Below, piece by piece: positions 1-62,869 of a stretch of DNA of 64,000 nt. Position 1 is the first letter of the stretch. Every line of letters starts with the position of its first letter. Origin of the DNA: Patescibacteria group bacterium (GTDB lineage: Bacteria > Patescibacteriota > Patescibacteriia > UBA1558 > UBA10009); contig JBAZSE010000005.1 in the NCBI GenBank assembly GCA_041662565.1, forward strand, positions 402 to 64,401. The letters are read 5' to 3'. Made by a program: the position numbers and the translations under genes. Below the pieces are notes generated by a model. That model did no database searches. It was not told where the DNA came from and saw nothing but the letters and a program-made list of their open reading frames with translations.

Positions 1-1602
1 GGCAAGTGGCTGGAAGGGGCGCGCGATTGGTCTATTTCTCGTCAGCGGTTTTGGGGTTCGGTAATGCCAATTTGGGTTTGCAAGGAGTGTGGTGAAAAAA
101 AAGTTTTTGGTTCGGTTGAGGAATTAGAGCATGCTTCCGGCAGGGAAGTTAATGATTTGCATAAGCACGTAGTTGATTTGATTACCGTGCCGTGCCCCAA
201 CTGTAAAAATAACATGAACAGAATTCCTGATGTATTGGATTGCTGGTTTGAATCCGGTTCTATGCCTTACGCCCAATTGCATTATCCTTTTGAAAATAAA
301 GAAAAATTTGAACATAATTTTCCAGCTGCTTTTATTGCCGAGGGCGCGGACCAAACCAGAGCTTGGTTTTATTATTTGCATGTTTTAGCCGTAGGCATCA
401 AGGGTAAAGCGGCTTTCAAAAATGTGGCGGTTAACGGTATTGTGTTGGCTGCTGATGGCAAAAAAATGTCCAAAAAGCTTAAAAATTATCCGGACCCAAT
501 GGAGATGATTAATAAATATGGCGCCGATGCCATGCGTTATTATTTAGCCACCTCGCCGGTTTTAAAAGCCGATGATTTGTGTTTTGCCGAACATGATTTA
601 GCCACTGTTTATAAAAAGGTTTTTATTATTTTGGGAAATGTTGTTTCGTTTTACAAAATGTATGAGCCGCAAACGGCAAATTCTTTATTCTCCGAACCCG
701 TCGAATCGGCGGGGAAGAGGGCTAAGATCCAAATTCCAAGATCCAAAAATATTTTGGACGAATGGATTTTAGTTAAGCTTGCTGTTTTGAATCAAGAAAT
801 TACAACTGCGTATAAAGGTTATGATTTGGTTGGGGCTGCGCGGCCACTGGGTGATTTTATTGATCAACTTTCTACTTGGTATTTAAGGCGTTCCCGCGAA
901 AGGTTTAAAGGAGAGGATGAAGATGATAAACAAAATGCCTTGGCAACTTTTAAATATGTTTTGTCAGAATTGTCGTTGTTAATGGCTCCGGTAATGCCGT
1001 TTACCGCCGATTGGCTTTATAAAGAAGCGGGCGGGGCTAAACAATCTGTCCATCTTGAAAGTTGGCCTGTTGATTTTATTAAACATGATGAAAAAGTTTT
1101 AGCTAATATGGAAGCAGTCAGAAAGATTGTGGAATTGGCTTTAGCTAAACGTGATGAAGTTGGTATTAAAGTCAGACAGGTTTTGGGTAGCTTAAAGCTC
1201 AAAACGCAAAGTTTAAAACTAAGGGATGAATATCTAAATTTAATCAAAGACGAGGTTAATGTCAGAGAAGTGAAATTCATCAAAGGAACGTCCGATAATC
1301 TTGAAGTTGAATTGGATACGGTTTTAACGGAAGAATTAAAAGCCGATGGTTTGTACCGGGAATTAATTAGAACCATCAACCAGTTGCGCAAAGAAGCCGG
1401 CCTAACCATTCAAGATAAAGTTAGCGTTTTTTATCAAACAAATTCTTTATTGGTTAAAAGCGCCATTACTCAATTTAATGCGGAGCTTTTAAAAAATACT
1501 TTAAGTTTAAGTTGGCAAGAAAGCAAAGCGGGGGATTGTTTAATTACCAAAGAGGCGGAAGTTAATGGCGAGATTGTTAATTTATCATTGGTTAAAGTTT
1601 AA
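1..1602 (+). CDS. ileS: Isoleucyl-tRNA synthetase, C-terminal part (5' end lies outside the window)
   Basis: The reading frame is open from base 1 (..WSISRQRFWG..). It contains the KMSKKL (KMSKS) class I motif, a Cys-X2-Cys..Cys-X2-Cys zinc knuckle and an anticodon-binding C-terminus. Confidence 0.85.
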   Translation, partial: GKWLEGARDWSISRQRFWGSVMPIWVCKECGEKKVFGSVEELEHASGREVNDLHKHVVDLITVPCPNCKNNMNRIPDVLDCWFESGSMPYAQLHYPFENKEKFEHNFPAAFIAEGADQTRAWFYYLHVLAVGIKGKAAFKNVAVNGIVLAADGKKMSKKLKNYPDPMEMINKYGADAMRYYLATSPVLKADDLCFAEHDLATVYKKVFIILGNVVSFYKMYEPQTANSLFSEPVESAGKRAKIQIPRSKNILDEWILVKLAVLNQEITTAYKGYDLVGAARPLGDFIDQLSTWYLRRSRERFKGEDEDDKQNALATFKYVLSELSLLMAPVMPFTADWLYKEAGGAKQSVHLESWPVDFIKHDEKVLANMEAVRKIVELALAKRDEVGIKVRQVLGSLKLKTQSLKLRDEYLNLIKDEVNVREVKFIKGTSDNLEVELDTVLTEELKADGLYRELIRTINQLRKEAGLTIQDKVSVFYQTNSLLVKSAITQFNAELLKNTLSLSWQESKAGDCLITKEAEVNGEIVNLSLVKV

Positions 1603-1647
1603 GTTTTTAGTTTTATCGAGCTAAGCTCGATTAAGTTTTGAATTTTT
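1602..1647. repeat. Palindromic mini-element (about 46 bp), intergenic copy between ileS and recO
   Basis: AGTTTTTAGTTTTATCGAGCTAAGCTCGATTAAGTTTTGAATTTTT with a perfect 17-bp core palindrome ATCGAGCTAAGCTCGAT. Confidence 0.75.
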
Positions 1648-1650
1648 GCC

Positions 1651-2328
1651 ATGTCCATTTTTTTAAATACCGAGGCCATTGTTTTAGCCAAATTGCCCCT
1701 TAAAGAGGCCGACCGTTTATACATTTTATTCACTCCCGAATTCGGCAAAATAGAAGCGCAAGTAAAATCGGCGGTTACCAGCAAAAGCAAATTAGCCGGA
1801 TCGTTAGAGCCGATTTCGCAAGCTAAAATAATGATTGTTAAGGGCCGGCACCTTGAAAGCGTAGCCGGTGCTCAGCTGTTACAGCGTTTTAATTTTAGCG
1901 AGCCCTTAATTTTTGGCCAAATCGGTTTGGTTAGGGAATTATTTATTAAATTGCTTAAGCCCGAAGTTAAAGAGCCCGTGTTGTATCAAAATTTATTAAG
2001 TTATCTTTCTGCCATGTCCGGAAGCGCCGAACTTGAAGCCAAAAGATTTTTAACACAAAGATTTATTTGGCAACTCCTTAATATCAGCGGTTTTAGCGGA
2101 ATAACTGATGATACCTTGTATTTGCATTCTGCCCATGGCCAAAATCAGGATATTTCCGGTTTGGATTTACCAACCCGGGAGTTGCTAAAAAACTGCCTCT
2201 TGCTCGAACCCCAACCTTTACAAGTGGCTGATAATTTGTTACAAAAACTAGAGAACTTTACGCGAACATATTTAAGGCAGATTTTAGAGCGGGATTTAAA
2301 TTCATTTTATTTTAATCTATCACTTTGA
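1651..2328 (+). CDS. recO: DNA repair protein RecO (no zinc-finger cysteines)
   Basis: The N-terminal OB-fold pattern (EAIVLAKLPLKEADRLYILFTPEFGKIEAQVKS) resembles RecO. It is 225 aa. The stop TGA overlaps the next start (TGATG). Confidence 0.6.
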   Translation: MSIFLNTEAIVLAKLPLKEADRLYILFTPEFGKIEAQVKSAVTSKSKLAGSLEPISQAKIMIVKGRHLESVAGAQLLQRFNFSEPLIFGQIGLVRELFIKLLKPEVKEPVLYQNLLSYLSAMSGSAELEAKRFLTQRFIWQLLNISGFSGITDDTLYLHSAHGQNQDISGLDLPTRELLKNCLLLEPQPLQVADNLLQKLENFTRTYLRQILERDLNSFYFNLSL

Positions 2329-4226
2329 TGTTTAACGATAATCGGAAAAAAAATCACGGGCTGGTTGATTTGCGATCAGCCAATGTGGTTAAAAAAGCTG
2401 CCACCTCTGCCCCAAAGCATGATGATTTTTTAAGCACGCCCCACGGCCCGGAACACCGTAAAATTACCCGCCGGCCGATTAAAAAGCGCTCGTCTTTTTT
2501 ATTGTTTTTAATCGTTTTACTGCTTGTTTTAGCCGGCGCTTCTATTGCCAGTTTTTTTATCTTTGATCAAGGAAAAGGCGATCAATCATTGCGCTTAACT
2601 TTAGCCGCCGCTAAAAGCGTTTCTTCGGGGGAAGAAGTAACCCTGGAAATCGGCTACGAAAATTTGGATACCATTGCTTTACAAAAAATGCAGGTGGTGG
2701 TGGAATATCCCAAGGGCTTTTATTTTAATTCCGCCTCACAGGAACCCGTTAATCAAGAGAGTAATATTTGGAATTTGCCGGATTTGGGAGTTGGACAAAA
2801 AGGTACGCTTTCTATTAATGGTCAGTTGATTGGCAAGGTAGAGGAAAATAAAGAATTTAAAATGACTTTTCAGTATCGCCCGAGTAATTTTAATTCCGAT
2901 TTCAGCGAAACTCTTGCCAAAGCCATTAAGATTAGCCAGACCTTGTTTCCTGTAAATTTAACGGCACCTGAAAAAATTGAAGAAGGCCAAACAGTAAATT
3001 TTAAAGGCGATTTTAAAAATGAAGCCAAGCAGGATTTAAATAATTTATTTTGGAGTTTTGATTTAGGCGAAGCTTTTATGCCTTTGTCTTTAACTCCAAC
3101 CACTTCCATAAACTACCAATGGTCTTTACCCGCATTGCCACCAGGTGAAAAAAAAGATATTTTGGTTGAAGGAAAAATAAATTCCGCAGTTGCCAACCCC
3201 TTGCCTTGGTATTTTAAAATCTGGCAGAAAGTTGATTTTAAAGGCAATCAGCAGGAACGTATTCTATACGAGCAATCAGGCCAAGTTGAAGTTGTTGCGC
3301 CGGTTTTAAAAGTTGGCTTGGAACTTTCTTCACCCGATAAAAAAATCAATTGGGGCGATGAAGTTGATTTAAAGCTGACTTACGAAAATATAGGCAAGAT
3401 TGATGTTAAGGAAGCGGTGTTAAAATTAGCTTTAAACCAGTATATTGATTGGCCAAGGTACAAAAACCAAACCAATGCCACCATAGATGGTAACACTTTA
3501 ATTTGGCTTTCCAAAAGCGGAAATGCCACTGTTGGCCTTTCAAATATCCCAGTTGGCACAAAAGGCGAACTTTTGATAACCGTACCGTTTGTTTTGGAAC
3601 CTAAGGATTTAATGGATTATTCGCCCGATGAAGCCAAGTTGGAGGCAACAGCTTCGGCTATGATTAAATATAATGATCAGGAGTTGAATTTTAACAGCGA
3701 AAAATTGCTTTTGCCTTTAATCAGTGCGGCGCGTTTGCAGGCCGAGGCCAGGTATTATTTGGATTCAACCCCGCTAAGCGGGGCAAGTACCAAAGTAGGC
3801 AGCGGTCCTTTGCCTCCGGTAGTTGGTCAAGAAACAAAATATCGGATTTACTGGAAGCTATTTACCGGCTCAAGCGGTTTAAGCAACGTGGCGGTTAAAG
3901 CCAGCTTGCCTTCTTATATTAATTTTGTTGGGGGCGCTGATAATCCCACCTTGGGCACACCTTTAAAATTTGATTCCGCCACGCGTGAAGTTTCGTGGGA
4001 AATTAATGAGGCAGCGCCTAACACCGGTTTAATGGCTAGTTTTGATGTTAGTGTTAAACCCTCAACCGATCAGGTTAATCAATTGCTAATCTTAAGCAAT
4101 CCCGCCATGCTTAACGCCCAGGAAAAAGATAGCAATAATTTTATTTCCAAAACCACAAATTTGTTAACTTCCGATTTAACAGCCGATTTGCAAGCCAAGG
4201 GCAAGGGCAGGGTAATGGTAAAATAA
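2328..4226 (+). CDS. Hypothetical membrane-anchored protein: basic cytoplasmic N-terminus, one TM helix, then repeated extracellular beta-sandwich-like (DUF11/CARDB-like) segments
   Basis: A hydrophobic helix (FLLFLIVLLLVLAGASIASFFIF) follows a Lys/Arg-rich N-terminus, and the extracellular part has recurring similar blocks. The ATG at 2328 is preferred over the TTG at 2325. Confidence 0.5.
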   Translation: MFNDNRKKNHGLVDLRSANVVKKAATSAPKHDDFLSTPHGPEHRKITRRPIKKRSSFLLFLIVLLLVLAGASIASFFIFDQGKGDQSLRLTLAAAKSVSSGEEVTLEIGYENLDTIALQKMQVVVEYPKGFYFNSASQEPVNQESNIWNLPDLGVGQKGTLSINGQLIGKVEENKEFKMTFQYRPSNFNSDFSETLAKAIKISQTLFPVNLTAPEKIEEGQTVNFKGDFKNEAKQDLNNLFWSFDLGEAFMPLSLTPTTSINYQWSLPALPPGEKKDILVEGKINSAVANPLPWYFKIWQKVDFKGNQQERILYEQSGQVEVVAPVLKVGLELSSPDKKINWGDEVDLKLTYENIGKIDVKEAVLKLALNQYIDWPRYKNQTNATIDGNTLIWLSKSGNATVGLSNIPVGTKGELLITVPFVLEPKDLMDYSPDEAKLEATASAMIKYNDQELNFNSEKLLLPLISAARLQAEARYYLDSTPLSGASTKVGSGPLPPVVGQETKYRIYWKLFTGSSGLSNVAVKASLPSYINFVGGADNPTLGTPLKFDSATREVSWEINEAAPNTGLMASFDVSVKPSTDQVNQLLILSNPAMLNAQEKDSNNFISKTTNLLTSDLTADLQAKGKGRVMVK

Positions 4227-4237
4227 GAAATTGTTCT

Positions 4238-4378
4238 TGCTTTGCTCCGGATGAAATTAAATTTTCCATACTCGCACCCTCCTTCGTCTCGCCAGGGTCT
4301 CGCCTGCAGCTCGCCCTGGCTCGCTTGGGGGCACCCGCTCGTATGAAGAAAATTTAATTTCATCCGTCGCTCGCAAAT
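4238..4378. repeat. GC-rich TIR-flanked palindromic intergenic element, family A copy 1
   Basis: Perfect 18-bp TIRs GGATGAAATTAAATTTTC / GAAAATTTAATTTCATCC. Core CCCTCCTTCGTCTCGCC, then stem GCCAGGG/CCCTGGC around loop TCTCGCCTGCAGCTCG. Confidence 0.8.
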
Positions 4379-8286: not shown

Positions 8287-8425
8287 TTGCGAGCGACGGG
8301 TGAAATTAAATTTTCTTCATACGAGCGGGGCCCGCGAGCGAGCCCGGGCGAGTTTCAAACGAGACCCGGGCGAGACGAAGGAGGGTTGCGAGCATGGAAA
8401 ATTTAATTTTACCTGGAGCAAAGCA
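8287..8425. repeat. GC-rich palindromic element, family A copy 2 (inverted orientation relative to copy 1)
   Basis: About 90% identical to the reverse complement of 4238-4378, including flanks. The internal stem is GCCCGGG/CCCGGGC, a compensatory change relative to copy 1. Confidence 0.8.
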
Positions 8426-8439
8426 ATGATTGCTAAATT

Positions 8440-10773: not shown

Positions 10774-11445
10774 ATGTCCACATTATATATAGTAGCTACC
10801 CCGATCGGTAATTTAGAAGATATCACCTTAAGAGCTCTTAGAATTCTTAAAGAAGTTGATTTTGTATTGTGCGAAGATACCAGGGTTACGAGGAATTTAT
10901 TGGCACATTACCAAATTAATACGCCTACCTTGTCTTTTCATCAGCATTCCACCGGATTGGAAGTAAATAAGTTGATTAATTTAATTAGAGAAGGAAAAAA
11001 TTTGTCTTTGGTGACGGATGCCGGTACTCCCGGTGTAAGCGATCCGGGCGGAGTATTGGTGGAAAAGGTAATTAAGGAATTTGGCGATCAGGTCAAAATT
11101 GAAGCCATTCCCGGGCCTTCGGCAATCACAGCGGCAATTTCCATTGCCGGGTTGCCATTGGATAAATTTTTATTTTTGGGTTTTTTGCCCCATAAAAAGG
11201 GTCGGCAAACATTGTTAAAAGAAATCGCTAATTCAAATTACCCCGTTATTTTATACGAATCGGTCCACCGCATTGAAAAATTATTGGATGAGTTGTCTGG
11301 TAATAACTATCAGTTGGTAGTTGCCAGAGAATTAACTAAAAAGTTTGAAACAATTTACCGGGGAACGGCGGAAGAAATTAAAATCCAGTTAAAGCCAGCA
11401 GAAGTGAAGGGGGAATTTGTTGTAATAATTTCAAAAAATGAGTAA
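10774..11445 (+). CDS. rsmI: 16S rRNA (cytidine1402-2'-O)-methyltransferase
   Basis: LYIVATPIGNLEDITLRALRILKEVDFVLCEDTR is the RsmI/tetrapyrrole-methylase-fold N-terminus. Confidence 0.85.
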   Translation: MSTLYIVATPIGNLEDITLRALRILKEVDFVLCEDTRVTRNLLAHYQINTPTLSFHQHSTGLEVNKLINLIREGKNLSLVTDAGTPGVSDPGGVLVEKVIKEFGDQVKIEAIPGPSAITAAISIAGLPLDKFLFLGFLPHKKGRQTLLKEIANSNYPVILYESVHRIEKLLDELSGNNYQLVVARELTKKFETIYRGTAEEIKIQLKPAEVKGEFVVIISKNE

Positions 11446-12880
11446 AAAATTTTATATTACCACCGCCATACCTTATGTTAATGCCCGTCCGCATATTGGC
11501 TTTGCTTTGGAAGCAGTGCAGGCCGATGCTTTGGCTAGATATCATCGCACTTTAGGCGAGGATGTATTCTTTTTAACCGGCACGGATGAAAACAGCTTAA
11601 AAAACGTTCAAGCCGCGGAAAAAGAAGGCATTAGCGCGCAAGAGCTGTGCGATCGCAACGCCAAAGTTTTTTTGGAATTAAAAAACGCCCTTAATTTGTC
11701 ATTTGATTCATTTATTAGAACAACCGAAGAACGCCATTTTAGCGGGGCGCAAAAATTATGGTCTGGGTGCCAGCCACAAGATATTTATAAAAAGAAGTAT
11801 CAGGGTTTTTATTGCGTTGGCGGCGAAGCTTTTTATCTGGAAAAAGATTTAATCGAAGGGTTATGCCCGGAGCATAAAACCGCGCCCGATTTGATTGAAG
11901 AAGAAAATTATTTTTTCAAGCTTTCAAATTATCAGGATAAATTATTAAAATTAATTGAATCAGACGAGTATAAAATTACGCCAGCCACCAAAAAAAATGA
12001 AATTACCAGCTTTATTAAAATGGGATTGGAAGATTTTAGCATTTCCCGCTCAACTGCTCGGGCTCATGGCTGGGGAGTAAGTGTTCCAGACGATGCCTCG
12101 CAAATAATGTATGTCTGGTTTGACGCTTTATCTAATTATATTACAGCTTTGGATTATTCATCCGAAGGCGACTTATTTAAAAAATATTGGCCGGCCGATG
12201 TGCATGTGGTAGGCAAGGGGATTATCCGGTTCCACGCTGTTTACTGGCCAGCCATGTTAATGAGCGCCGGTTTGGAAGTTCCTAAAGAATTGTTTGTTCA
12301 TGGATATGTTAATGTTGGTGGAGAAAAAATGAGCAAGAGTTTGGGTAATGTGATTGATCCTTTTGAATTGGTTTCCAAATACGGCACCGATGCCGTTCGT
12401 TATTATCTGCTCAAGCAAATTCATCCGGTAGAAGATTCCGATTTTACGATTGAAAAATTTGAAGAAGTTTATAACGCGGATTTGGCCAATGGGCTGGGGA
12501 ACCTCGTTTCCAGAACAGCTAATTTGATTGAAAAGAATTTTGATGGGAAACTTAAAGCTCAAAACTTAATTGAGCTCAGCTCGATAGAGCTAAAAACTAA
12601 TTTTGATAAATATATTAAAGAATATAGATTTGATTTGGCGCTTAAGGAAATTCAGGAAATGATTACGGCTACCGACCAGCTGATTGATCAACAAAAGCCC
12701 TGGGTTTTGGTTAAAACCGATTTAAAAAAAGCAGAAGAAGTTTTGGTTCAGGCAGTTAGCCAAATTTTATCCGTAGCCGAAAGTTTAAAGCCATTTTTAC
12801 CTCCTACAGCGGATAAAATCATCGTTCAGTTTACTGCCGAAAAGATAGTTAAAGGCGAATCGTTGTTTCCAAGAATTTAA
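11438..12880 (+). CDS. metG: Methionyl-tRNA synthetase; carries an in-frame palindromic mini-element insertion at 12554-12604
   Basis: YITTAIPYVNARPHIGFA (HIGH region) and KMSKSLGN. The inserted peptide is ..KAQNLIELSSIELKTNF.. Confidence 0.9.
   Translation: MSKKFYITTAIPYVNARPHIGFALEAVQADALARYHRTLGEDVFFLTGTDENSLKNVQAAEKEGISAQELCDRNAKVFLELKNALNLSFDSFIRTTEERHFSGAQKLWSGCQPQDIYKKKYQGFYCVGGEAFYLEKDLIEGLCPEHKTAPDLIEEENYFFKLSNYQDKLLKLIESDEYKITPATKKNEITSFIKMGLEDFSISRSTARAHGWGVSVPDDASQIMYVWFDALSNYITALDYSSEGDLFKKYWPADVHVVGKGIIRFHAVYWPAMLMSAGLEVPKELFVHGYVNVGGEKMSKSLGNVIDPFELVSKYGTDAVRYYLLKQIHPVEDSDFTIEKFEEVYNADLANGLGNLVSRTANLIEKNFDGKLKAQNLIELSSIELKTNFDKYIKEYRFDLALKEIQEMITATDQLIDQQKPWVLVKTDLKKAEEVLVQAVSQILSVAESLKPFLPPTADKIIVQFTAEKIVKGESLFPRI
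12554..12604. repeat. Palindromic mini-element copy inserted in-frame within metG
   Basis: AAAGCTCAAAACTTAATTGAGCTCAGCTCGATAGAGCTAAAAACTAATTTT; both arms match the reverse complement of the 1602-1647 copy. Confidence 0.75.
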
Positions 12881-12885
12881 GTTTT

Positions 12886-13032
12886 TAAAGCGAGCATGGG
12901 CAAGTAAAATTTTTTTCGGTCTGAGACGGGTCCCCCCGAACGAGCCTGGGCGAGCTACAAGCGAGACCCTGGCGAGTTGAGGGAGGGAGGCGAGGACAAA
13001 AAAATTTTTGCTTGGCCAGGCTAGCGTTCAAC
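12886..13032. repeat. GC-rich palindromic element, subfamily B
   Basis: Core GGCGAGTTGAGGGAGGGAGG; near reverse complement of the 18287-18421 copy. Confidence 0.75.
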
Positions 13033-18286: not shown

Positions 18287-18421
18287 CTAGCGCAAGGTAA
18301 AAAAAATTTTTTGTCCTCGATTCCCTCCCTCAACTCGTCGGGGTCTCGTCTGGAACTCGCCCCGACTCGTTCGGGGGGATCCCGTCTCGGACCGAAAAAA
18401 TTTTTCTTACCTCGCGCTAGC
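18287..18421. repeat. GC-rich palindromic element, subfamily B, located inside the atp operon between atpE and atpF
   Basis: TIR CTAGCGCAAGGTAAAAAAAATTTTTT / AAAAAATTTTTCTTACCTCGCGCTAG. Internal stem GTCGGGG/CCCCGAC around loop TCTCGTCTGGAACTCG. Confidence 0.8.
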
Positions 18422-18441
18422 TATTATCTACATATAACATT

Positions 18442-24744: not shown

Positions 24745-27700
24745 ATGACTTACGCTGATTCTCTTAATCCGGAGCAAAAAAAGGCCGTAGAATACACCAA
24801 GGGCCCGCTATTAATCGTGGCCGGCGCCGGTACCGGTAAAACAACGGTTATCTGCGAACGGATCAATTTTTTAATTACCAAAAAAAATTTACAGCCCAAT
24901 CAAATTTTAGCCCTAACTTTTACCGAAAAAGCCGCCGCCGAAATGGAAGAAAGGGTGGATAAAGCCCTGCCTTACGGTTATATCGATTTATGGATTTCCA
25001 CCTTCCACAGTTTTGCCGAAAGATTATTACATGAGCATGGTTTGGATATCGGCTTAAGCGATGATTTTAAATTATTGGATCAAACCGCTTCCTGGCTGTT
25101 GGTGCGCAATAATTTGGATAAATTCAATTTGGATTATTACCGACCGCTGGGCAATCCCAATAAATTCATCCATGCGTTGTTAAAGCATTTTTCCAAATGC
25201 AAAGATGAACTTATCAAACCAAAAGATTATTTGGACTACGCTGAATCATACCGTTTGGATAATGATTTAAGAAAAGATGAATCCGCCTTCGCCAAGGCTT
25301 CGTCGGACCAAGGGGATGCCGCCATGGAAGTTAAGCGTTTGGAAGAACTAGCTAATGCTTATCATGTTTATCAGCAGTTGTTGCTGGATAATAATTATTT
25401 GGATTTTGGCGACTTAATTAATTATGTGTATGAGCTTTTTTTAAAGCGTCCGCAAATTTTAAAAAAATACCAAGAGCAGTTTAAATACATTTTGGTTGAT
25501 GAATTTCAGGATACCAATTACGCCCAGTACCAATTAATCAAGCTTTTGGCCGGAACAAAAAATAACGTCACGGTAGTGGGGGATGACGACCAATCAATTT
25601 ATAAATTCCGCGGGGCTTCTATTTCTAATATTTTGGAATTTAAAAAAGATAACCCCAAATGCTTGGAAATTTATTTAACCACCAATTACCGGACCAAGCA
25701 GAATATTTTGGATGTTGCCTATAAGTTTATCCAGCTTAATAATCCCAATCGGTTGGAAGCGCAGTTAAAAATCAAAAATAAATCGAGCTCAGCTCGACAA
25801 AGCTCAAAGCTCAAGACTCCAGCCAAAAGTTCAAGATCAAAATTTACCAAAGAGTTAATCGCTTCCAGAACAGGGCAGGGGATTATTGAGCATTTGCACG
25901 CGCCAACGCTGGATGACGAGGTGGCAATGGTGATCAATAAAATCGGCCAGCTTTATCAAAAAGAACAGGGTCTTTCGTGGTCCAATTTTGCCATTTTAGT
26001 TAGAGCTAACGATCAGGCCAGGCCGTTTATCGAGGCCCTGGAAAGAGCGGCTGTGCCTTACCAATTTGTGGCTTCCCGCGGGCTTTATGCCAAACCCTTG
26101 GTGTTAAATTTAATTGCTTTTCTGCGCTTGTTGGATAACTACCATGAATCCGATGCTATGTACCGCTATTTAACTTTACCGATTTTTGCCTTACCTCAAG
26201 CGGAATTGATTAAAATCACCCACGAAGCCAATAAAAAAAGATGGACTTTATACGAAACCGTTAAACAGGTTCGTTACTTATTGCATCTATCGCCTGATGC
26301 GCAAAAAGGTCTGGATGTGGCTTTAAATTTTTTGGAAAAATATCTGGCCCGCGCCAAAACGGAAAAATGCAGCCGTTTGGTTTTTGATTTTTTAAACGAA
26401 TCAAATTATTTAAAATATATCGATACCTTACCCGAAGGCAAAAAGCGCCAAGAATTTTCTTATCTTTCCCAGTTTTACAAGCGCATTAAAACTTTTGAAG
26501 AAATCAATGATGATAAATCGGTTAAAAATTTCCTCAACCAGTTGGGTTTGGAATTGGAATCAGGCGAGCAGGGTGATCTGGCGGCCTTAAACGAAGATGA
26601 AGGTCCGGAAATGGTTAAAGTGATGACGGTGCACAGTGCCAAGGGTTTGGAATTTAAATATGTTTTTATCGTTAATTTGGTGGATATGCGCTTTCCCACT
26701 CGTGAGCGGCACGATCCTATCCAATTGCCCGATAAATTAATTAAAGAAATTGTGCCGGAAGGGGATATTCATTTGCAGGAAGAAAGACGATTGTTTTACG
26801 TTGGTTTAACCCGTGCTCGCGACGGTTTGTTTTTAACTTCGGCCGAAGATTACGGCGGGGTTAAAAAGAAAAAGATTTCCGTTTTTTTAACCGACCTTGG
26901 GTTCAAGCAGCCGGAGCATTTAACTTTTGTTAAAGAAAAATTGGAAACAGTGGAACAAGTGCAAGGTACTGCCAAAGAAACGATTAAAGAATTTTTGCCA
27001 GCCAAATTTTCTTTCACCCAAATCAAGGATTTTCTTGCTTGTCCTCGGTCGTATTATTACAAATACATATTAAAAGTCCCTATGCAGGGTAATAATTATT
27101 TTAGCTTTGGTTCTTCCATTCACCTGTCTTTGCAAAAATTTTACGAAGAAGTCAAAAGAAGAAAGGGAAGCGCGCAAACCGGTTTGTTTGGTCCGGTTTC
27201 GCAACCGAATTTGTTTGGCCAGAGTAATGTTTTAACTCAAGGGGACCCCTCGACGCGGCTCGGGGCAGTTCTCAAATCCTCTAGCCCAAAGTTAATTCGC
27301 GATTTAATTAGTTTAGAGGAGTTAATTAAATTTTACCAAGAGAACTGGATCGAGGACTGGTATGCTTCAAAAGAGCAGAAAGAAAAATATTTCAAATTAG
27401 GCAAGGAAATTTTAAAAAACTTTTACCATAGCGATTATTTGGAGCAATCCAATCCGGTTTATTTGGAAAAAGGTTTTGGTATTAAAGTGGGTGAATTTAG
27501 TTTAACCGGTAAAATTGATAGAATAGACCGCGTGCAAAACGGTTTAAAGATTATTGATTATAAAACCGGCCAACCCAAGGAAAAATTGGAAGCCGATGAT
27601 AAAGACCAGTTGTTAATTTACCAAATGGCTGCTGCGCAATTGTTTAACGAACCAATAGGTGAGCTGGCTTATTATTATTTGGAAAACGATACTCAAGTGG

Positions 27701-27837
27701 TTTTTTTGGGTAAGGAAAAGGATATGGAAAAATTGCAAGAAAAAATTATCACCACCATCAATCAAATCAGAGATTTTGACTTTTTGGCCTTTGTAGAGAG
27801 CCACGGACAGTGTGATTATTGCAAAGAGATTATTTAA
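24745..27837 (+). CDS. UvrD/PcrA-type SF1 helicase fused to a C-terminal RecB-family PD-(D/E)XK nuclease (AddA-like). It carries an in-frame palindromic mini-element insertion at about 25775-25830.
   Basis: Walker A AGAGTGKTT, helicase motifs, a nuclease motif GKIDRIDRV...IIDYKTG, and Cys residues (CPRSYYY, CDYC) suggesting an Fe-S-type nuclease domain. Confidence 0.8.
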   Translation: MTYADSLNPEQKKAVEYTKGPLLIVAGAGTGKTTVICERINFLITKKNLQPNQILALTFTEKAAAEMEERVDKALPYGYIDLWISTFHSFAERLLHEHGLDIGLSDDFKLLDQTASWLLVRNNLDKFNLDYYRPLGNPNKFIHALLKHFSKCKDELIKPKDYLDYAESYRLDNDLRKDESAFAKASSDQGDAAMEVKRLEELANAYHVYQQLLLDNNYLDFGDLINYVYELFLKRPQILKKYQEQFKYILVDEFQDTNYAQYQLIKLLAGTKNNVTVVGDDDQSIYKFRGASISNILEFKKDNPKCLEIYLTTNYRTKQNILDVAYKFIQLNNPNRLEAQLKIKNKSSSARQSSKLKTPAKSSRSKFTKELIASRTGQGIIEHLHAPTLDDEVAMVINKIGQLYQKEQGLSWSNFAILVRANDQARPFIEALERAAVPYQFVASRGLYAKPLVLNLIAFLRLLDNYHESDAMYRYLTLPIFALPQAELIKITHEANKKRWTLYETVKQVRYLLHLSPDAQKGLDVALNFLEKYLARAKTEKCSRLVFDFLNESNYLKYIDTLPEGKKRQEFSYLSQFYKRIKTFEEINDDKSVKNFLNQLGLELESGEQGDLAALNEDEGPEMVKVMTVHSAKGLEFKYVFIVNLVDMRFPTRERHDPIQLPDKLIKEIVPEGDIHLQEERRLFYVGLTRARDGLFLTSAEDYGGVKKKKISVFLTDLGFKQPEHLTFVKEKLETVEQVQGTAKETIKEFLPAKFSFTQIKDFLACPRSYYYKYILKVPMQGNNYFSFGSSIHLSLQKFYEEVKRRKGSAQTGLFGPVSQPNLFGQSNVLTQGDPSTRLGAVLKSSSPKLIRDLISLEELIKFYQENWIEDWYASKEQKEKYFKLGKEILKNFYHSDYLEQSNPVYLEKGFGIKVGEFSLTGKIDRIDRVQNGLKIIDYKTGQPKEKLEADDKDQLLIYQMAAAQLFNEPIGELAYYYLENDTQVVFLGKEKDMEKLQEKIITTINQIRDFDFLAFVESHGQCDYCKEII
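25775..25830. repeat. Palindromic mini-element copy inserted in-frame within the helicase-nuclease gene
   Basis: AAATCGAGCTCAGCTCGACAAAGCTCAAAGCTCAAG; core TCGAGCTCAGCTCGA is a perfect palindrome. It encodes the low-complexity peptide NKSSSARQSSKLKT. Confidence 0.7.
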
Positions 27838-39020: not shown

Positions 39021-39284
39021 TTATCTTTTAAAAATTTTAAAATAACTTTCCATTAATTCTTCCATAACGCTTAGATTAATGGAATAAATAATTTGCTGGC
39101 CGGCTCGCTCCTGCGAAATCAAATCGGCTTCTTTAAGAATGTTAAAGTGGTGAGTTAAGGAGGGGAGGGTAATGCTAAAATTTTCGGCAATTTCTCCGGC
39201 ACTTTGCGAGTGTATTTTAAGCAGTTCCAAAATTTTTCTTCTGGTTGGGTCCGAGAGGGCTTTGAAAGTTTTATTGAGTGTCAT
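39021..39284 (-). CDS. ArsR/SmtB-family HTH transcriptional regulator (SdpR-like)
   Basis: LSDPTRRKILELL...AGEIAENFSITLPSLTHHFNILKEADLI. Confidence 0.8.
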   Translation of the reverse strand: MTLNKTFKALSDPTRRKILELLKIHSQSAGEIAENFSITLPSLTHHFNILKEADLISQERAGQQIIYSINLSVMEELMESYFKIFKR

Positions 39285-39289
39285 AAGTT

Positions 39290-39345
39290 AGATATTTAGC
39301 CAACTATCTAAATATATCATATCTAAATTTTTTTACAAGTGGATA
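39290..39345. promoter_or_regulatory. Operator-like direct/inverted repeats (ATCTAAAT / TTAGATAT) upstream of the ArsR gene
   Basis: TTAGATATTTAG...CTATCTAAATATATCATATCTAAAT: repeated half-sites in the divergent promoter region. Confidence 0.4.
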
Positions 39346-39431
39346 AGTTTTTATATATTGGTGCCTGCACCGTAGACCCGCAAAAGCGCGAAGCGCTGAG
39401 CGGGTTCTACGGTGTGGATAACTTTAAACTA

Positions 39432-39460
39432 TTGCCAATCAGCCAAGCATATGCTATATT
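39432..39460 (+). promoter_or_regulatory. Candidate promoter for secE-nusG-rplKA (TTGCCA-N17-TATATT)
   Basis: Good -35/-10 spacing. It is preceded by a GC hairpin plus a TGTGGATAA motif that is also found upstream of the AsnRS-like gene. Confidence 0.4.
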
Positions 39461-39521
39461 GTTAGTAATAGCCCCAAAGGGGCTTTTAAAAAACTTTAAA
39501 TTTGGCTAATATTAAACAAAT

Positions 39522-39713
39522 ATGAGCAACAAAATTGTTGAATATATTAAGCAATCCAGGGCAGAACTTAAAAAGGTTGTTTGGCCGACCAAAAAGCAGA
39601 CCCGTAACCATACTTTAATGGTTATTGGAGTTTCTTTGGGTCTGGCGATTTTTTTAGGCGCTGTTGACTTTGGTTTAAATAAGCTCTTGGAACTTTTTGT
39701 TTATAAAGTTTAA
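39522..39713 (+). CDS. secE: Preprotein translocase subunit SecE
   Basis: A single-TM 63-aa protein immediately upstream of nusG. Confidence 0.8.
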   Translation: MSNKIVEYIKQSRAELKKVVWPTKKQTRNHTLMVIGVSLGLAIFLGAVDFGLNKLLELFVYKV

Positions 39714-39741
39714 TTTCAGAATTCATTCATAATTCATTTAT

Positions 39742-40287
39742 ATGCCTAAGCAAACATTACAACAGGGAAGAAGATGGTACGTTTTGCATACTTATTCCGG
39801 CTACGAGGAAAACGTAACCCGAAACCTAAAACAGCGTATTGAATCCATGGATATGGAAGATAAGATTTTTGATGTTTTAGTTCCGACCGAAACCAAAATT
39901 AAAATCCGTAACAGTAAAAGAACCACTACCAGGGAAAAAATTTTTCCCGGCTATGTTTTGGTTAACATGATTGTGACCGATGATTCGTGGTACGTGGTGC
40001 GTAATACGCCCAACGTGACGGGTTTTGTGGGTTCGGGTACTACCCCGACTCCGGTTTCGGAAGAAGAAATCAAGGAATTGCAAAGAAGAATGGGCGTGGA
40101 AGAACCAACTTACAAAGTAGATGTAGCCGTGGGTACTTCTGTTAAAATTTCCGATGGTCCTTTTAAGGATTTTGAAGGCAAGATTTCCGAAATTGACGAA
40201 GCCAAGGGCAAGGTTAAAGTTCTTATTTCCTTGTTTGGCCGTGAAACCCCGGTAGAATTGGATTCTTTACAGATTAAAAAAATATAA
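39742..40287 (+). CDS. nusG: Transcription termination/antitermination factor NusG
   Basis: NGN domain (WYVLHTYSGYE) and a KOW C-terminus. Confidence 0.9.
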   Translation: MPKQTLQQGRRWYVLHTYSGYEENVTRNLKQRIESMDMEDKIFDVLVPTETKIKIRNSKRTTTREKIFPGYVLVNMIVTDDSWYVVRNTPNVTGFVGSGTTPTPVSEEEIKELQRRMGVEEPTYKVDVAVGTSVKISDGPFKDFEGKISEIDEAKGKVKVLISLFGRETPVELDSLQIKKI

Positions 40288-45314: not shown

Positions 45315-46154
45315 ATGCAGGGCTTTACTCGCTTTGTGGCAAGAAAACATATGAGAAAAATTTTTCTCTTGTTGGCTTTGTTGGCTACGGCTATCTGGCC
45401 AGCCGGCAGTGTTATGGCCTGGAGTAATCCCAGCCACCCTTTTATGGTGGATAAAGCCGCCATTATTTTACAAAAAGATTTGGCAGCGTATATTAAAAAG
45501 TATCCTGATTTTAACAAGTATTTAAACACCTATCTGCCAAAAATTAAACAAGGTGCATCCGATGCCGATGCTTTTTCCACTACTGTTGGCAAAGAGGTTT
45601 ATAAATTTAAGGTCTTAGGCAAAAGTTATGAAATTTACATGCCAACCAGTGAACATTATTATGATGTGGCAACCGGCAAAGGAGCTTTAAAATATTTTAG
45701 ATCAGCCAGGCAAAAAGCCGATGAATATTATGCAACTGCCAAACAGAAATTTACCGAAAAAAAATATGATGACGCCTTTTTGTTTTTAGGCAGAGCAATT
45801 CATATGGTTCAGGATACTACCAATCCGCACCACACTCAAATCGGCGCCAGTGCCATTCTTAACTGGGAGGGTTTTTCCAATCACGCTTTTTCCAACCGGG
45901 AAAAATACAGCGTTGCTTCGGGCGGGATTTATACCGAGCCCAATATAGGCACCATGGTCCACAATAACGCCAATCTTTGCTCGGGTTATTTTAAGTATGT
46001 TGATGGCTTAAACAGATTGATTAAATGGATTAATTGGCCGGTTGATGATGATTATCCCAAGGCCGGTAACGCCTGTTTTTCCAGAGGCGAAAAAACAACA
46101 GCTGGTGCTGTTTACATGTTTTTAAAGGATGTTCTTAAGTTGCCAGCCAAGTAA
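45315..46154 (+). CDS. Secreted zinc-dependent phospholipase C / P1-nuclease-fold protein
   Basis: Signal peptide, then mature N-terminal WSNPSHPF (Trp1 zinc ligand), EHYYD, and FLFLGRAIHMVQDTTNPHHT matching the B. cereus PLC zinc-site pattern. Confidence 0.65.
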   Translation: MQGFTRFVARKHMRKIFLLLALLATAIWPAGSVMAWSNPSHPFMVDKAAIILQKDLAAYIKKYPDFNKYLNTYLPKIKQGASDADAFSTTVGKEVYKFKVLGKSYEIYMPTSEHYYDVATGKGALKYFRSARQKADEYYATAKQKFTEKKYDDAFLFLGRAIHMVQDTTNPHHTQIGASAILNWEGFSNHAFSNREKYSVASGGIYTEPNIGTMVHNNANLCSGYFKYVDGLNRLIKWINWPVDDDYPKAGNACFSRGEKTTAGAVYMFLKDVLKLPAK

Positions 46155-46184
46155 ATATATCATATGATTACATATAAACTCCTC

Positions 46185-46210
46185 GGCTCGTCGAGCTAAG
46201 CTCGATCTCG
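46185..46210. repeat. Core-only copy of the mini-element palindrome upstream of gatB
   Basis: GGCTCGTCGAGCTAAGCTCGATCTCGCC contains the perfect TCGAGCTAAGCTCGA. Confidence 0.55.
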
Positions 46211-48489: not shown

Positions 48490-48726
48490 ATCAGACGGCG
48501 CTAACGTAAAAATAAAAAAATTTGTAGCCGAGGACCGTTTAAGCCTTATCAAACGTGGCTTGAGAAAATTCAGAACGGCGGGGATAACTTAAATGAAAAA
48601 ATCGCAATTGATTGGCGCGTTCCGCAGGCAAGAATTTTTTTATTTTTACGATTAGCTATACCTAATTTAACGATGTGTGGCGCTTAGCGCCACAACCCCA
48701 GCGCTAAGCGCTGTGGATAAATACTA

Positions 48727-48755
48727 TTGACGGTCAATTTTTGAAAGAGTATTAT
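48727..48755 (+). promoter_or_regulatory. Candidate promoter TTGACG-N17-TATTAT driving a ~110-nt leader/sRNA that ends at a strong terminator
   Basis: Near-consensus hexamers. Upstream is a GC hairpin plus TGTGGATAA; downstream is the terminator at 48842-48870. Confidence 0.4.
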
Positions 48756-48841
48756 TATCCACAGTATGTTAAAACAAAACTTTAAATGGAAAGATAGGTT
48801 GAGCGTTACTCCAGGTTTAAGTTTTTCAAATTTTATCAATT

Positions 48842-48870
48842 ACACCCGTCAATAAGACGGGTGTTTTTTT
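48842..48870 (+). terminator. Rho-independent terminator (or attenuator) 30 nt upstream of the AsnRS-like gene
   Basis: ACACCCGTC-AATAA-GACGGGTGT followed by TTTTTTT. Confidence 0.75.
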
Positions 48871-48898
48871 AACTTAATTATTAACTAAGCTTTAATTT

Positions 48899-56217: not shown

Positions 56218-56452
56218 AGGTTTTTTGTTAGGTTAAGGTTATAAATTAAAAAAATTCCTTCGTCCAATAAATCTACTAAAAAATAAGTAAATTCAGGACG
56301 AAGGAATTTATTCCCCCGCGGTTCCACCTGTTTTATCCCGCTAAGCAGGATCTCTCAGAGATTGTCTTTAAACTTAGCCCCGCTTAGCGGGGTTTCCATT
56401 TTTATGGACGCAGGGTTGGTAGCCCTGCCAATCGTTTAGTATGCTAAATATA

Positions 56453-62864: not shown

Positions 62865-62869
62865 AATTT

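What the first reader, a model, noticed from the sequence alone, without database searches (positions are those of the whole stretch)
12554..12604. RPE-like palindromic mini-element inserted in-frame inside the essential gene metG
A palindromic element of about 45-50 bp (core TCGAGCT-N-AGCTCGA with AT-rich arms CAAAACTTAAT / ATTAAGTTTTG) occurs 4 times in this 64-kb window: 1602-1647, 12554-12604, 25775-25830 and 46185-46210. Four exact copies of a 15-17-bp palindrome are far beyond chance. The metG copy lies inside the coding sequence without breaking the frame and adds the peptide KAQNLIELSSIELKTNF. Its arms are near-identical to the reverse complement of the intergenic copy at 1602-1647, and the spurious antisense ORF there translates to LIELSSIKLKT. 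This is the behaviour described for Rickettsia palindromic elements, which are selfish palindromes tolerated in-frame in proteins. As far as I know it is not a described feature of streamlined CPR-like genomes.
Basis: partly seen in the sequence, partly recalled or inferred. Interest (0 to 1): 0.75.

Follow-up and report, generated by a model that had tools for sequence, protein, structure and literature searches.

The report
Hairpin DNA repeat inside CPR metG
A short hairpin-forming DNA repeat really does sit in frame inside the methionyl-tRNA synthetase gene of this tiny-genome (Patescibacteria) bacterium. It replaces or extends a naturally variable surface loop by about 6 residues rather than adding 17, and elsewhere in the phylum the same hairpins cluster around a small GIY-YIG nuclease gene, which suggests how they spread.

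Summary
TCGAGCTNAGCTCGA occurs four times in the window against 0.02 expected; the metG copy has one mismatch. Three copies (1602-1646, 12552-12598, 25765-25811) share a ~45-nt unit. Two lie in frame in different codon phases, in metG and a UvrD/AddA-like helicase.

MetG is not 17 residues longer. Orthologues and solved MetRS have an equal or longer connector here. The net gain is 6 codons against the closest palindrome-free orthologue, in a low-confidence loop of the anticodon-binding domain.

Both coding sites are indel hot spots that carry different GC-rich palindromes in related genomes. A cleaner case is an 18-nt palindrome insertion at 3765-3782.

The core belongs to a Patescibacteria-wide family of perfect palindromes with a fixed GCTNAGC apex and covarying stems. 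In 80 metagenome loci chosen only for a ~90-aa GIY-YIG gene, all 28 such palindromes lie within 250 nt of that gene, usually just after a tRNA gene.

This copies the published Ssn nuclease/hairpin-repeat architecture, a superfamily that includes Neisseria dRS3 and Rickettsia RPE-4/-6. It is not an RPE member but a new CPR variant of that kind. Mobilisation by the nuclease is inferred, not shown.

The parts
12552..12598 (+). metG copy of the ~45-nt repeat unit. The core is 12570-12584 (TTGAGCTCAGCTCGA, one mismatch), flanked by the direct repeat GCTCAAAACTTAAT / GCTAAAAACT-AAT.
   Evidence: In frame, with the core starting at codon position 2. The DNA hairpin is degenerate.
11438..12880 (+). 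metG (methionine--tRNA ligase, 480 aa), host gene of the finding
   Evidence: Pfam PF09334 E 5e-105; 100% identical to a Patescibacteria MAG protein; AF2 model with mean pLDDT 91
1598..1646 (-). Intergenic copy between ileS (stop codon at 1600-1602) and recO (start at 1651). The 17-nt perfect palindrome ATCGAGCTAAGCTCGAT lies at 1615-1631, flanked by the 9-nt direct repeat TTAAGTTTT.
   Evidence: The orthologous junction in L008 is 1 nt long. Weakly terminator-like on the + strand.
25765..25811 (+). Copy inside the UvrD/AddA-like helicase-nuclease gene. The core at 25783-25797 is read as SSSAR (codon position 1).
   Evidence: The site is hypervariable among orthologues.
24745..27837 (+). UvrD-type helicase with a C-terminal PD-(D/E)XK nuclease domain (1030 aa), host of the second coding copy
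   Evidence: Pfam PF00580, PF13361, PF12705
46191..46205 (.). Core-only copy (cgTCGAGCTAAGCTCGA), 18 nt upstream of the gatB start (46224) and downstream of a promoter-like site at 46140-46168
3765..3782 (+). Clean 18-nt in-frame insertion (peptide STPLSG) holding the sister palindrome CCCCGCTAAGCGGGG (3769-3783), in ORF 2325-4226
   Evidence: Absent from all 4 orthologues that cover the site. Hairpin -7.4 kcal/mol, z -3.9.
56378..56392 (.). Intergenic twin of that palindrome (CCCCGCTTAGCGGGG)
48676..48713 (.). Two adjacent GCTNAGC-apex palindromes with different stems (TGTGGCGCTTAGCGCCACA and CAGCGCTAAGCGCTG) in a 410-nt spacer

Best explanation
The sequence at 12552-12598 is one slightly decayed copy of a short hairpin-forming DNA repeat. 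Its core is (A)TCGAGCT-N-AGCTCGA(T): a 6-7 bp stem with a T-N-A triloop.

In this genome the core travels within a ~45-nt unit with A-rich flanks. That unit has been copied to at least three places: an intergenic spacer, metG and a helicase gene.

The core belongs to a family of perfect palindromes found in many classes of Patescibacteria. The apex GCTNAGC is fixed and the stems covary, which points to intrastrand pairing rather than binding of a dimeric protein to duplex DNA.

In other CPR and metagenome contigs, arrays of these same palindromes lie directly between a tRNA gene and a ~90-aa single-domain GIY-YIG nuclease gene. The palindromes plus the nuclease gene form a discrete ~350-nt cassette found behind different tRNA genes.

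This is the architecture published for Ssn site-specific single-stranded-DNA nucleases and their hairpin repeats (NTS/SRM). I therefore infer that the repeat is the ssDNA hairpin substrate of such a nuclease, and that it spreads as a non-autonomous element when DNA is single-stranded (replication, repair or transformation).

Copies that land in frame in permissive, Lys-rich surface loops survive. In MetG the copy occupies the variable connector after the long helix of the anticodon-binding domain and changes its length by only about 6 residues.

Shown: repeat identity, coding context, loop location, insertion polymorphism, and the association of the palindrome family with GIY-YIG cassettes. 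Inferred: that a nuclease of this type exists in this genome, that it cleaves these hairpins, and that it drives their spread.
For: The repeat is real and dispersed. Codon phases differ between the coding copies, and elsewhere all three phases occur (SSLARL, VELSSI, NRAxLD).

Insertion polymorphism: the ileS-recO spacer is 48 nt here and 1 nt in L008. metG is +18 nt relative to L002. L004 and L005 carry a decayed core at the same site, read in different frames from each other, and L007 carries an unrelated GC-rich palindrome there. The helicase site holds different palindromes in L088 and L089, and nothing in the base-form orthologues. The 18-nt insertion at 3765-3782 is absent from 4 orthologues. 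Several other lineage-unique indels hold GC-rich palindromes.

Loop location: AF2 pLDDT averages 64-67 over residues 371-390 and is below 50 at 379-382. Solved MetRS vary in length at this point.

Family: 8 of the 14 GCTNAGC sites in the window are centres of longer palindromes. In 734 kb of loci, GCTNAGC is the centre of 109 odd palindromes, 31 of them not selected for, against at most 13 for any other G+C-containing centre. The 19-nt pattern gives 78 genome hits, 34 of them in named Patescibacteria of at least 9 candidate groups, often several per genome. Hairpin energies are -5.4 to -7.5 kcal/mol. Flanking direct repeats of at least 8 nt number 11 observed against 2.3 expected.

Nuclease link: GIY-YIG genes are flanked by the palindromes in L011, L029 (Ca. 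Daviesbacteria), L031 and L073, with Pfam PF01541 E 1e-14 to 4e-17. In 80 loci chosen only by the GIY-YIG protein, all 28 GCTNAGC palindromes in 233 kb lie within 250 nt of the gene. They occur in all 12 closest relatives and in 1 of 68 distant ones. Nine of ten have a tRNA gene just upstream. Similarity between L094 and L095 (74-96%) starts at the tRNA 3' end and stops at the GIY-YIG stop codon, with unrelated flanks and different tRNAs.

Published parallel: Ssn/NTS-SRM (PMC11893778); dRS3 and RPE-4/-6 as CGTC REPs, and REPs inside replication and repair genes (PMC3733652).
Against: No GIY-YIG gene lies in the 64-kb window or in the roughly 130 kb of Komeilibacteria-like loci held. The rest of the source genome could not be read; it is absent from both contig collections.

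The palindromes do not match the published SRM search motif (0 hits), and most lack the CGTC tag.

The nearest solved relatives of the CPR nuclease are UPF0213 proteins (1zg2, 1ywl), so membership of the Ssn clade proper (cd10448) is untested.

Ssn has been shown to cleave ssDNA and to lower transformation, not to move repeats. NTS repeats are rarely inside genes (2%), whereas 4 of 8 are here.

The A-rich arms of the metG copy are partly conserved coding sequence in orthologues (KLKTN; L002 has both arms without the core). The direction and age of the copying events are therefore unclear.

The control for flanking repeats used mostly coding positions, which may understate chance repeats in AT-rich spacers.
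Confidence: 0.55

Rival explanations
1. The palindromes are functional RNA hairpins: terminators, 3' trailers of tRNA genes, 5'-UTR stabilisers or processing sites. Selection maintains them in intergenic spacers, and the coding copies are rare by-products with no mobility system behind them.
For: Most genome hits are intergenic and within 10-40 nt of gene ends or starts. Copy 1 passes the terminator-like scan directly after the ileS stop codon. Copy 4 lies downstream of a promoter-like site in the gatB leader. L032 is a textbook bidirectional terminator, A7-CCGAGCTTAGCTCGG-T7. The arrays follow tRNA genes. The metG mismatch is a G-U pair in the sense RNA.
Against: There is no orientation bias relative to flanking genes: 10 vs 10 starts on either side. 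The TCGAGCT family has no U-tract; its flanks are AAT...YAAA. In-frame copies occur in all three phases in many taxa. Other tRNA genes in the same loci lack the palindromes, which occur only beside the GIY-YIG gene. No Rfam family matches. This rival does not explain the shared 45-nt unit at three unrelated places.
Confidence: 0.17
2. The palindromes arise locally by template switching or snap-back synthesis at replication or repair, at indel-prone A-rich sites. GCTNAGC acts as a favoured nucleation centre, and no element is copied from place to place.
For: Both coding sites are indel hot spots carrying unrelated GC-rich palindromes in different lineages. Stems differ from site to site around the same apex. 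Direct repeats flank many copies at variable distance.
Against: Identical 15-19-mers recur at many loci and across classes of Patescibacteria. Three window copies share about 30 nt of flank beyond the core. The tight link to a GIY-YIG cassette is not predicted.
Confidence: 0.1
3. The 7-N-7 palindrome is the duplex-DNA operator of a dimeric transcription factor conserved in Patescibacteria, and the coding copies arose by chance.
For: It has a symmetric 7-1-7 layout. Many copies lie 11-30 nt upstream of start codons, including groEL (L037) and rpsL (L063). In several genomes it sits between TTGAAT and TATTNA hexamers.
Against: Within a single genome the outer half-sites vary while staying complementary around a fixed apex. 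That is what base pairing predicts, not a single DNA-binding protein. Isolated half-sites are not enriched. The hexamer spacing is 14 nt, too short for a sigma-70 promoter (established 17±1 spacing). The coding copies show insertion signatures.
Confidence: 0.05
4. It is a genuine member of the Rickettsia palindromic element (RPE) families, acquired or shared by descent.
For: In-frame occurrence in housekeeping genes and hairpin potential. RPE-4 and RPE-6 belong to the same broad CGTC-REP class as Ssn-linked repeats.
Against: RPEs are about 150 bp and each encodes a conserved peptide. Here the unit is 15-45 nt, is read in different phases, and 3 of 4 copies lack the CGTC tag.
Confidence: 0.02

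Closest known systems
Ssn single-domain GIY-YIG ssDNA nucleases with their hairpin repeats (NTS in Neisseria, SRM in general; Chenal et al. 2025, PMC11893778)
   Same: A ~90-aa single-domain GIY-YIG gene with hairpin-forming repeats immediately beside it, sometimes on both sides (L011, L029, L092). The same repeats are dispersed elsewhere in the genome. The repeat-gene-repeat layout resembles an insertion sequence. The hosts are symbiont or reduced-genome bacteria.
   Different: The motif does not fit the SRM search pattern. It is a perfect 15-21-nt palindrome with a fixed GCTNAGC apex and a 3-nt loop, not a 20-50-nt imperfect one with a CGTC head. The arrays sit mostly upstream of the gene and directly after a tRNA gene. 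Half of the window's copies are inside genes, against 2% for NTS. Clade membership (cd10448) and ssDNA cleavage are untested. No such gene was seen in this window.
CGTC-tagged REPs, including Neisseria dRS3 and Rickettsia RPE-4/RPE-6 (Di Nocera et al. 2013, PMC3733652)
   Same: Short GC-rich stem-loops, often in pairs or clusters. They have short unpaired tails resembling CCA; here the tail is CACC(A) after the palindrome beside GIY-YIG genes. They occur occasionally inside genes, notably replication and repair genes, as with the helicase here.
   Different: Stems of 8-9 bp with 4-5-nt loops and a CGTC head define that class. Here only the copy at 46191 is preceded by CG, giving CGTC.
Rickettsia palindromic elements (RPE-1 etc.; reviewed in PMC10969869)
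   Same: Palindromic selfish-looking DNA tolerated in frame in unrelated essential genes, in positions compatible with the protein fold.
   Different: RPEs are about 150 bp and encode a conserved peptide in one frame. This unit is 15-45 nt, is read in any frame, and changes the loop length by about 6 residues.
REP/BIME elements mobilised by RAYT (IS200/IS605-type) transposases
   Same: Hairpin repeats recognised as ssDNA by a small nuclease whose gene they flank. The copies are non-autonomous and scattered through the genome.
   Different: There is no GTAG tag, no Y1 transposase was seen, and the associated enzyme is GIY-YIG rather than HUH. REPs are overwhelmingly extragenic.
Organellar GC-rich palindromic elements (Volvox mtDNA/ptDNA, PMC2670323; coding palindromes of Nematomorpha mtDNA, PMC6649704)
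   Same: GC-rich palindromes spreading in AT-rich compact genomes and entering coding regions.
   Different: Eukaryotic organelles, unrelated sequences, and no associated nuclease cassette is known. These papers were seen only as search hits and were not read in detail.

Membership tests
Rickettsia palindromic elements (RPE) | Element length about 100-150 bp | tested here: not met
   The core is 15-17 nt and the shared unit 45-47 nt. Definition from PMC10969869.
Rickettsia palindromic elements (RPE) | Each family encodes a conserved peptide when inserted in ORFs | tested here: not met
   The core is read as IELSSI in metG and SSSAR in the helicase. All three phases occur elsewhere.
Rickettsia palindromic elements (RPE) | In-frame insertion in unrelated housekeeping genes at positions compatible with the fold | tested here: met
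   metG, helicase and ORF 2325-4226. The MetG copy lies in a low-pLDDT loop.
Ssn nuclease / SRM hairpin repeats | Hairpin repeats flank a single-domain ~94-aa GIY-YIG gene | tested here: met
   Met in related loci, not in the window: 28 of 28 palindromes lie within 250 nt of the gene in 80 unselected loci. The proteins are 79-93 aa and contain PF01541 only.
Ssn nuclease / SRM hairpin repeats | Repeat fits the SRM search pattern HGTCWYN(0-2)YYVSBRHN(0-5)WNVSBRGN(0-2)RNCYNB | tested here: not met
   0 matches in the window (both strands) and in 11 GIY-YIG loci.
Ssn nuclease / SRM hairpin repeats | Nuclease belongs to the cd10448 clade of GIY-YIG proteins | not testable with these tools
   No CDD and no SsnA sequence were available. 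The nearest solved proteins are UPF0213 (1zg2 E 9e-17, 1ywl). There was no NCBIfam hit.
Ssn nuclease / SRM hairpin repeats | Site-specific cleavage of ssDNA only, next to the hairpin, on one strand | not testable with these tools
   Biochemical property.
Ssn nuclease / SRM hairpin repeats | The same genome carries both the nuclease gene and many repeat copies | tested here: inconclusive
   The window has 8 family palindromes in 64 kb but no GIY-YIG ORF.
REP (GTAG- or CGTC-tagged) / RAYT | Conserved GTAG or CGTC tetranucleotide at one end | tested here: not met
   The trinucleotides before the core are mostly AAA, GAA, TTA, TAA and CAA. TCG, which gives CGTC, occurs in 4 of about 90 cores, including the copy at 46191.
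REP (GTAG- or CGTC-tagged) / RAYT | Associated IS200/IS605-type tyrosine transposase gene flanked by the repeats | tested here: inconclusive
   None among the window ORFs scanned with Pfam. Seven further window genes are known only from precomputed Pfam labels of locus L001, and a few, such as 62010-63988, were not scanned. The genome outside the window was not seen.
MITE | Terminal inverted repeats plus a target-site duplication of fixed length | tested here: inconclusive
   There is an excess of flanking direct repeats of 8-10 nt (11 vs 2.3 expected), but at variable distance from the core. The unit is shorter than any described MITE.
DNA uptake sequences (DUS/USS) | The single (unpaired) motif is itself strongly over-represented | tested here: not met
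   TCGAGCT and AGCTCGA each occur 4 times in the window, only once outside a palindrome.

The most novel reading that the evidence does not exclude
Patescibacteria carry their own branch of the Ssn-type system. A tRNA-linked GIY-YIG cassette has cognate GCTNAGC-apex hairpins that are written into the chromosome, including in frame into surface loops of essential proteins such as MetRS, a UvrD/AddA-like helicase and TatD. The system would then be a major source of the lineage-specific loop insertions seen in CPR proteins. By analogy with Neisseria, it would also control what incoming single-stranded DNA can recombine, in organisms that depend on DNA uptake.
Probability: 0.3. Interest if true: 0.8.

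Novelty: new variant of a known kind. Interest (0 to 1): 0.62.

Why it matters
CPR/Patescibacteria proteins are known for unexplained lineage-specific insertions, and their genomes are thought to be poor in mobile DNA.

This finding shows one concrete source of such insertions: short hairpin repeats that enter coding sequence in any frame at permissive loops, even in an essential tRNA synthetase.

The link to a small GIY-YIG nuclease cassette behind tRNA genes gives a testable candidate for the enzyme that recognises them. It would extend the recently described Ssn nuclease/hairpin-repeat principle to a new motif class and a new phylum. It also offers new sequence-specific ssDNA nuclease/target pairs, and suggests a way in which these DNA-scavenging bacteria might police transformation.

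Tried and rejected
Searches that found nothing:
- Rfam at gathering threshold on the whole window found only the tRNA.
- The viral contig scan for the 19-nt pattern gave 0 hits.
- The metagenome scan for core plus left arm gave 0 hits, so neither the source genome nor close relatives with the same arms are in that collection. The genome scan likewise did not return the source genome.
- The exact look-up of MetG given without its stop codon failed; it worked with P0001.
- The word-index search for the ORF 2325-4226 protein gave only 4 hits.
- Supplements of the Ssn paper are not held, so no SsnA sequence was available for comparison.

Ideas rejected:
- DUS-like uptake signal: half-sites are not enriched on their own.
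- Promoter: in several Uhrbacteria-like loci the palindrome lies between TTGAAT and TATTNA, but the spacing is 14 nt and the 'genes' downstream are 10-aa ORFs.
- Directional regulatory element: there is no orientation bias.
- Restriction-site over- or under-representation: there are 14 GCTNAGC sites against 11.8 expected.
- Transposase in the window: none was found among the scanned ORFs, which are housekeeping genes.
- SRM pattern of Chenal et al.: no match.

Lead kept but unexplained: NGCTNAGCN is the classical IS10/Tn10 target consensus (PMC4574204).

Full report
**1. What is in the sequence**

The pattern TCGAGCTNAGCTCGA, allowing two mismatches, has four matches in the window: 1616, 12570 (TTGAGCTCAGCTCGA, one mismatch), 25783 and 46191. 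Shuffles give 0.02 on average and never four. AGCTNAGCT occurs nowhere else in the window.

Three of the copies share much more than the core. 1602-1646 is 87% complementary to 12554-12598 over 45 nt. 25765-25811 is 81% identical to 12552-12598 over 47 nt. The copy at 46191 shares the core only.

Within a copy the flanks are direct repeats, for example TTAAGTTTT on both sides of the core at 1600-1639.

As single-stranded DNA the cores fold into 6-7-bp stems with a T-N-A triloop, at -5.4 to -6.1 kcal/mol. The metG copy is weakened by its mismatch and folds no better than shuffles.

**2. Genes and organism**

ORF 11438-12880 is methionine--tRNA ligase (PF09334, E 5e-105). ORF 24745-27837 is a UvrD-type helicase with a PD-(D/E)XK nuclease domain. 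Copy 1 lies between ileS and recO, and copy 4 lies 18 nt upstream of gatB.

MetG and the helicase are 100% identical to proteins of a 'Patescibacteria group bacterium' MAG, and the nearest named relatives are Candidatus Komeilibacteria. The rest of the window holds housekeeping genes, and no transposase was found among the ORFs scanned.

**3. The claimed 17-residue insertion**

The metG copy is in frame and reads KAQNLIELSSIELKTNF, but MetG is not longer than its relatives. The 120 best homologues are almost all 470-499 aa, against 480 here.

In the alignment the segment is a hypervariable connector. LKTN, which is encoded by the right arm, is conserved in the closest orthologues. Solved MetRS from Brucella (4dlp) and Aquifex (2csx) have 8 and 2 more residues there.

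An AlphaFold2 model (mean pLDDT 91) puts residues 369-388 in a low-confidence loop between helix 338-368 and helices 389-419 of the anticodon-binding domain. pLDDT is below 50 at residues 379-382.

At DNA level:
- The nearest orthologue without a palindrome (L002) is 18 nt shorter, yet keeps sequences like both arms.
- L004 carries a decayed core at the same site (CCCGAGCTAAGTCGAGGG).
- L005 has DNA homologous to L004 but read in another frame.
- L007 has an unrelated GC-rich palindrome (CCTGCCGGCGAGGCAGG) flanked by a 16-nt direct repeat.
- L008 has none.

The site is therefore an indel hot spot repeatedly occupied by palindromes. The net effect here is about 6 codons, not 17.

**4. The other copies behave the same way**

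In the helicase the core is read in a different phase (SSSAR). Most orthologues have 'LKV-ANKKLSKKL' at this point, whereas Komeilibacteria-like relatives carry inserts of different length and sequence. L088 has CCTCCGGAGCCCAAAGGGCGGAGG, L089 has a ~110-nt imperfect palindrome, and L091 has only a short insert.

The ileS-recO spacer is 48 nt here, almost all of it repeat, and 1 nt in L008.

The cleanest case was not in the finding. At 3765-3782 an 18-nt insertion (STPLSG) contains the palindrome CCCCGCTAAGCGGGG. It interrupts an otherwise invariant block (EARYYLD...KVGSGP) and is absent from all four orthologues that cover the site. Its twin, CCCCGCTTAGCGGGG, is intergenic at 56378.

A screen of orthologue sets found further lineage-unique indels built on GC-rich palindromes. 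One is GGCCAGCTGAGCTGGCC inside a TatD-like gene of L007.

**5. A family with a fixed apex**

Eight of the 14 GCTNAGC sites in the window are centres of palindromes extending at least 4 bp further on each side, with four different stems. GCTNAGC itself is not over-represented: 14 observed against 11.8 expected. GC-rich perfect hairpins number 19 in the window, against 1-8 in shuffles.

Across 734 kb of fetched loci, GCTNAGC is the centre of 109 odd palindromes, 31 of which were not selected for. No other G+C-containing centre exceeds 13.

A scan of 185,579 species genomes for AATYGAGCTNAGCTCGAYA returned 78 stretches. Thirty-four are in MAGs named as Patescibacteria: Uhr-, Shapiro-, Komeili-, Sacchari-, Yanofsky-, Davies-, Roizman-, Falkow- and Kerfeldbacteria, and Parcubacteria. 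There are often several hits per genome.

Nineteen more stretches are in MAGs labelled 'uncultured Gammaproteobacteria'. At least one of these has flanks nearly identical to an Uhrbacteria locus (L049 vs L075).

Most copies are intergenic and close to gene ends or starts, without orientation bias. Some lie inside real genes in all three phases.

A fixed apex with symmetric covariation of the stems within one genome argues for intrastrand pairing rather than a duplex operator. Isolated half-sites are not enriched, which argues against an uptake signal. Flanking direct repeats of at least 8 nt are in excess, 11 observed against 2.3 expected. One example is a 10-nt repeat around a 26-nt in-frame insert in L053.

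**6. Link to a nuclease**

Reading L011 showed arrays of these palindromes on both sides of a small gene. That gene is a 93-aa GIY-YIG protein, and homologues lie beside palindromes in L029 (Ca. Daviesbacteria), L031 and L073.

As an unbiased test I fetched 80 metagenome loci chosen only by similarity to this protein. All 28 GCTNAGC palindromes in their 233 kb lie within 250 nt of the GIY-YIG gene. They occur in all 12 closest relatives and in 1 of 68 distant ones.

The layout is constant: tRNA gene, then TCACC(G/A)AGCTNAGCT(C/T)GGTGA overlapping the tRNA 3' end, then a second palindrome. The second palindrome is often exactly ATCGAGCTNAGCTCGAT, the 17-mer of copy 1. It is followed by CACC, then 25-45 nt, then the start codon.

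Between L094 and L095, similarity of 74-96% begins at the tRNA 3' end and ends at the nuclease stop codon. The tRNAs (Glu, Lys) and outer flanks are unrelated. The palindromes plus gene therefore form a discrete ~350-nt cassette found at different tRNA genes.

**7. Comparison with what is known**

Chenal et al. 2025 (PMC11893778) describe Ssn. These are ~94-aa single-domain GIY-YIG proteins that bind and cut only single-stranded DNA next to a cognate hairpin repeat (NTS in Neisseria, SRM in general). The repeats flank the gene and are scattered in hundreds of copies. The system modulates transformation, and its repeat-gene-repeat layout resembles an insertion sequence.

Di Nocera et al. 2013 (PMC3733652) had grouped Neisseria dRS3 with Rickettsia RPE-4 and RPE-6 as CGTC-tagged REPs lacking a known enzyme. 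They also noted REPs inside replication and repair genes.

Membership, however, fails or is untested on several defining features:
- RPEs are about 150 bp and encode a conserved peptide.
- The SRM search pattern finds nothing here.
- The CGTC tag is rare.
- The nearest solved relatives of the CPR nuclease are UPF0213 proteins, and CDD clade assignment could not be made.
- No GIY-YIG gene lies in the window or in the Komeilibacteria-like loci held.

I found no description of these palindromes in CPR in six full-text searches.

**8. Most likely mechanism and its limits**

Shown:
- A dispersed hairpin repeat sits in frame in metG, in a permissive loop.
- It is present or absent at orthologous sites in related genomes.
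- It belongs to a phylum-wide palindrome family.
- That family is tightly associated with a GIY-YIG cassette.

Inferred: the repeat is the ssDNA substrate of an Ssn-like nuclease. It spreads as a non-autonomous element when DNA is single-stranded. In-frame copies survive only in tolerant Lys-rich loops.

The intergenic copies may also have acquired RNA-level roles. Copy 1 scores as a weak terminator after ileS, and copy 4 lies in the predicted gatB leader.

Unresolved: why the arms of the metG copy are partly conserved coding sequence, which leaves open whether the unit was copied from metG outward or inserted anciently and then homogenised. Also unresolved is whether the coincidence of GCTNAGC with the IS10 target consensus means anything.

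**9. Verdict**

This is not an RPE and not a 17-residue insertion. It is a CPR variant of nuclease-associated hairpin repeats, with unusually frequent in-frame coding copies. Novelty: new variant of a known kind. Interest: 0.62.

Noticed in passing
window 4237-4376, 8287-8426, 12889-13009, 18301-18422, 61801-61860: Five copies of a ~120-140-nt GC-rich intergenic repeat that folds into one long imperfect hairpin (-58 kcal/mol, z -6.9; 16 pairs kept through changes on both sides). The copies lie in both orientations, and one sits directly after metG. Relatives L002 and L008 have ~20-nt spacers after metG. In size and shape this repeat is much closer to an RPE or MITE than the 15-nt core is. No Rfam match.
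   Followed up: partly
window 3765-3782 (ORF 2325-4226): An 18-nt in-frame insertion made of the palindrome CCCCGCTAAGCGGGG, adding STPLSG inside a conserved block. It is absent from four orthologues. A twin palindrome lies at 56378-56392.
   Followed up: yes
L093-L102, L029, L011 (e.g. L094:1856-2270): A ~350-nt cassette consisting of a tRNA 3' end, two GCTNAGC-apex palindromes and a ~90-aa GIY-YIG gene. It is found behind different tRNA genes (Glu, Lys, His, Gln, Leu). The first palindrome overlaps the encoded tRNA 3' end (TCACCA), and CACC(A) recurs after the second.
   Followed up: partly
window 25285-25317 and 27172-27198 (helicase ORF): Two more lineage-unique in-frame insertions (AFAKASSDQGD, AQTGLFGPV) built around the small palindromes GCCTTCGCCAAGGC and CAAACCGGTTTG.
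   Followed up: partly
window 48489-48899: An unusually long (410-nt) spacer before a 330-aa class-II synthetase-like gene that lacks an anticodon-binding domain. It holds a 33-nt inverted repeat (48505-48537 / 48618-48650), two adjacent GCTNAGC palindromes (48676-48713) and a terminator-like hairpin (48842-48864 plus a T-run).
   Followed up: no
window 39368-39420 (spacer 39284-39742 upstream of nusG): A long GC-rich stem (CACCGTAGACCCGC...GCGGGTTCTACGGTG) with a GCTGAGC apex in a 458-nt spacer. It may be an unannotated structured RNA. No Rfam hit.
   Followed up: no
L079:1440-1700: A tandem array with a 67-nt period. Each unit holds two palindromes, ACGACGTTCAACGTCGC and ATCGAGCTCAGCTCGAT.
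   Followed up: no
P0123, P0130, P0136, P0140, P0210 (helicase orthologues, 1326-1367 aa): Several orthologues of the helicase carry an intein (precomputed Pfam PF14890) and are about 330 aa longer. The window protein has none.
   Followed up: no
L049 vs L075; L060, L039: MAGs titled 'uncultured Gammaproteobacteria bacterium' (TPA assemblies) carry the palindrome several times. One has flanks nearly identical to a Candidatus Uhrbacteria locus, so their taxonomic labels may be wrong.
   Followed up: no
window-wide; literature: The apex GCTNAGC equals the classical IS10/Tn10 target consensus NGCTNAGCN (PMC4574204). It also corresponds to a type II restriction site, by my recollection that of BlpI (not checked here). 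It is unknown whether this is coincidence.
   Followed up: no
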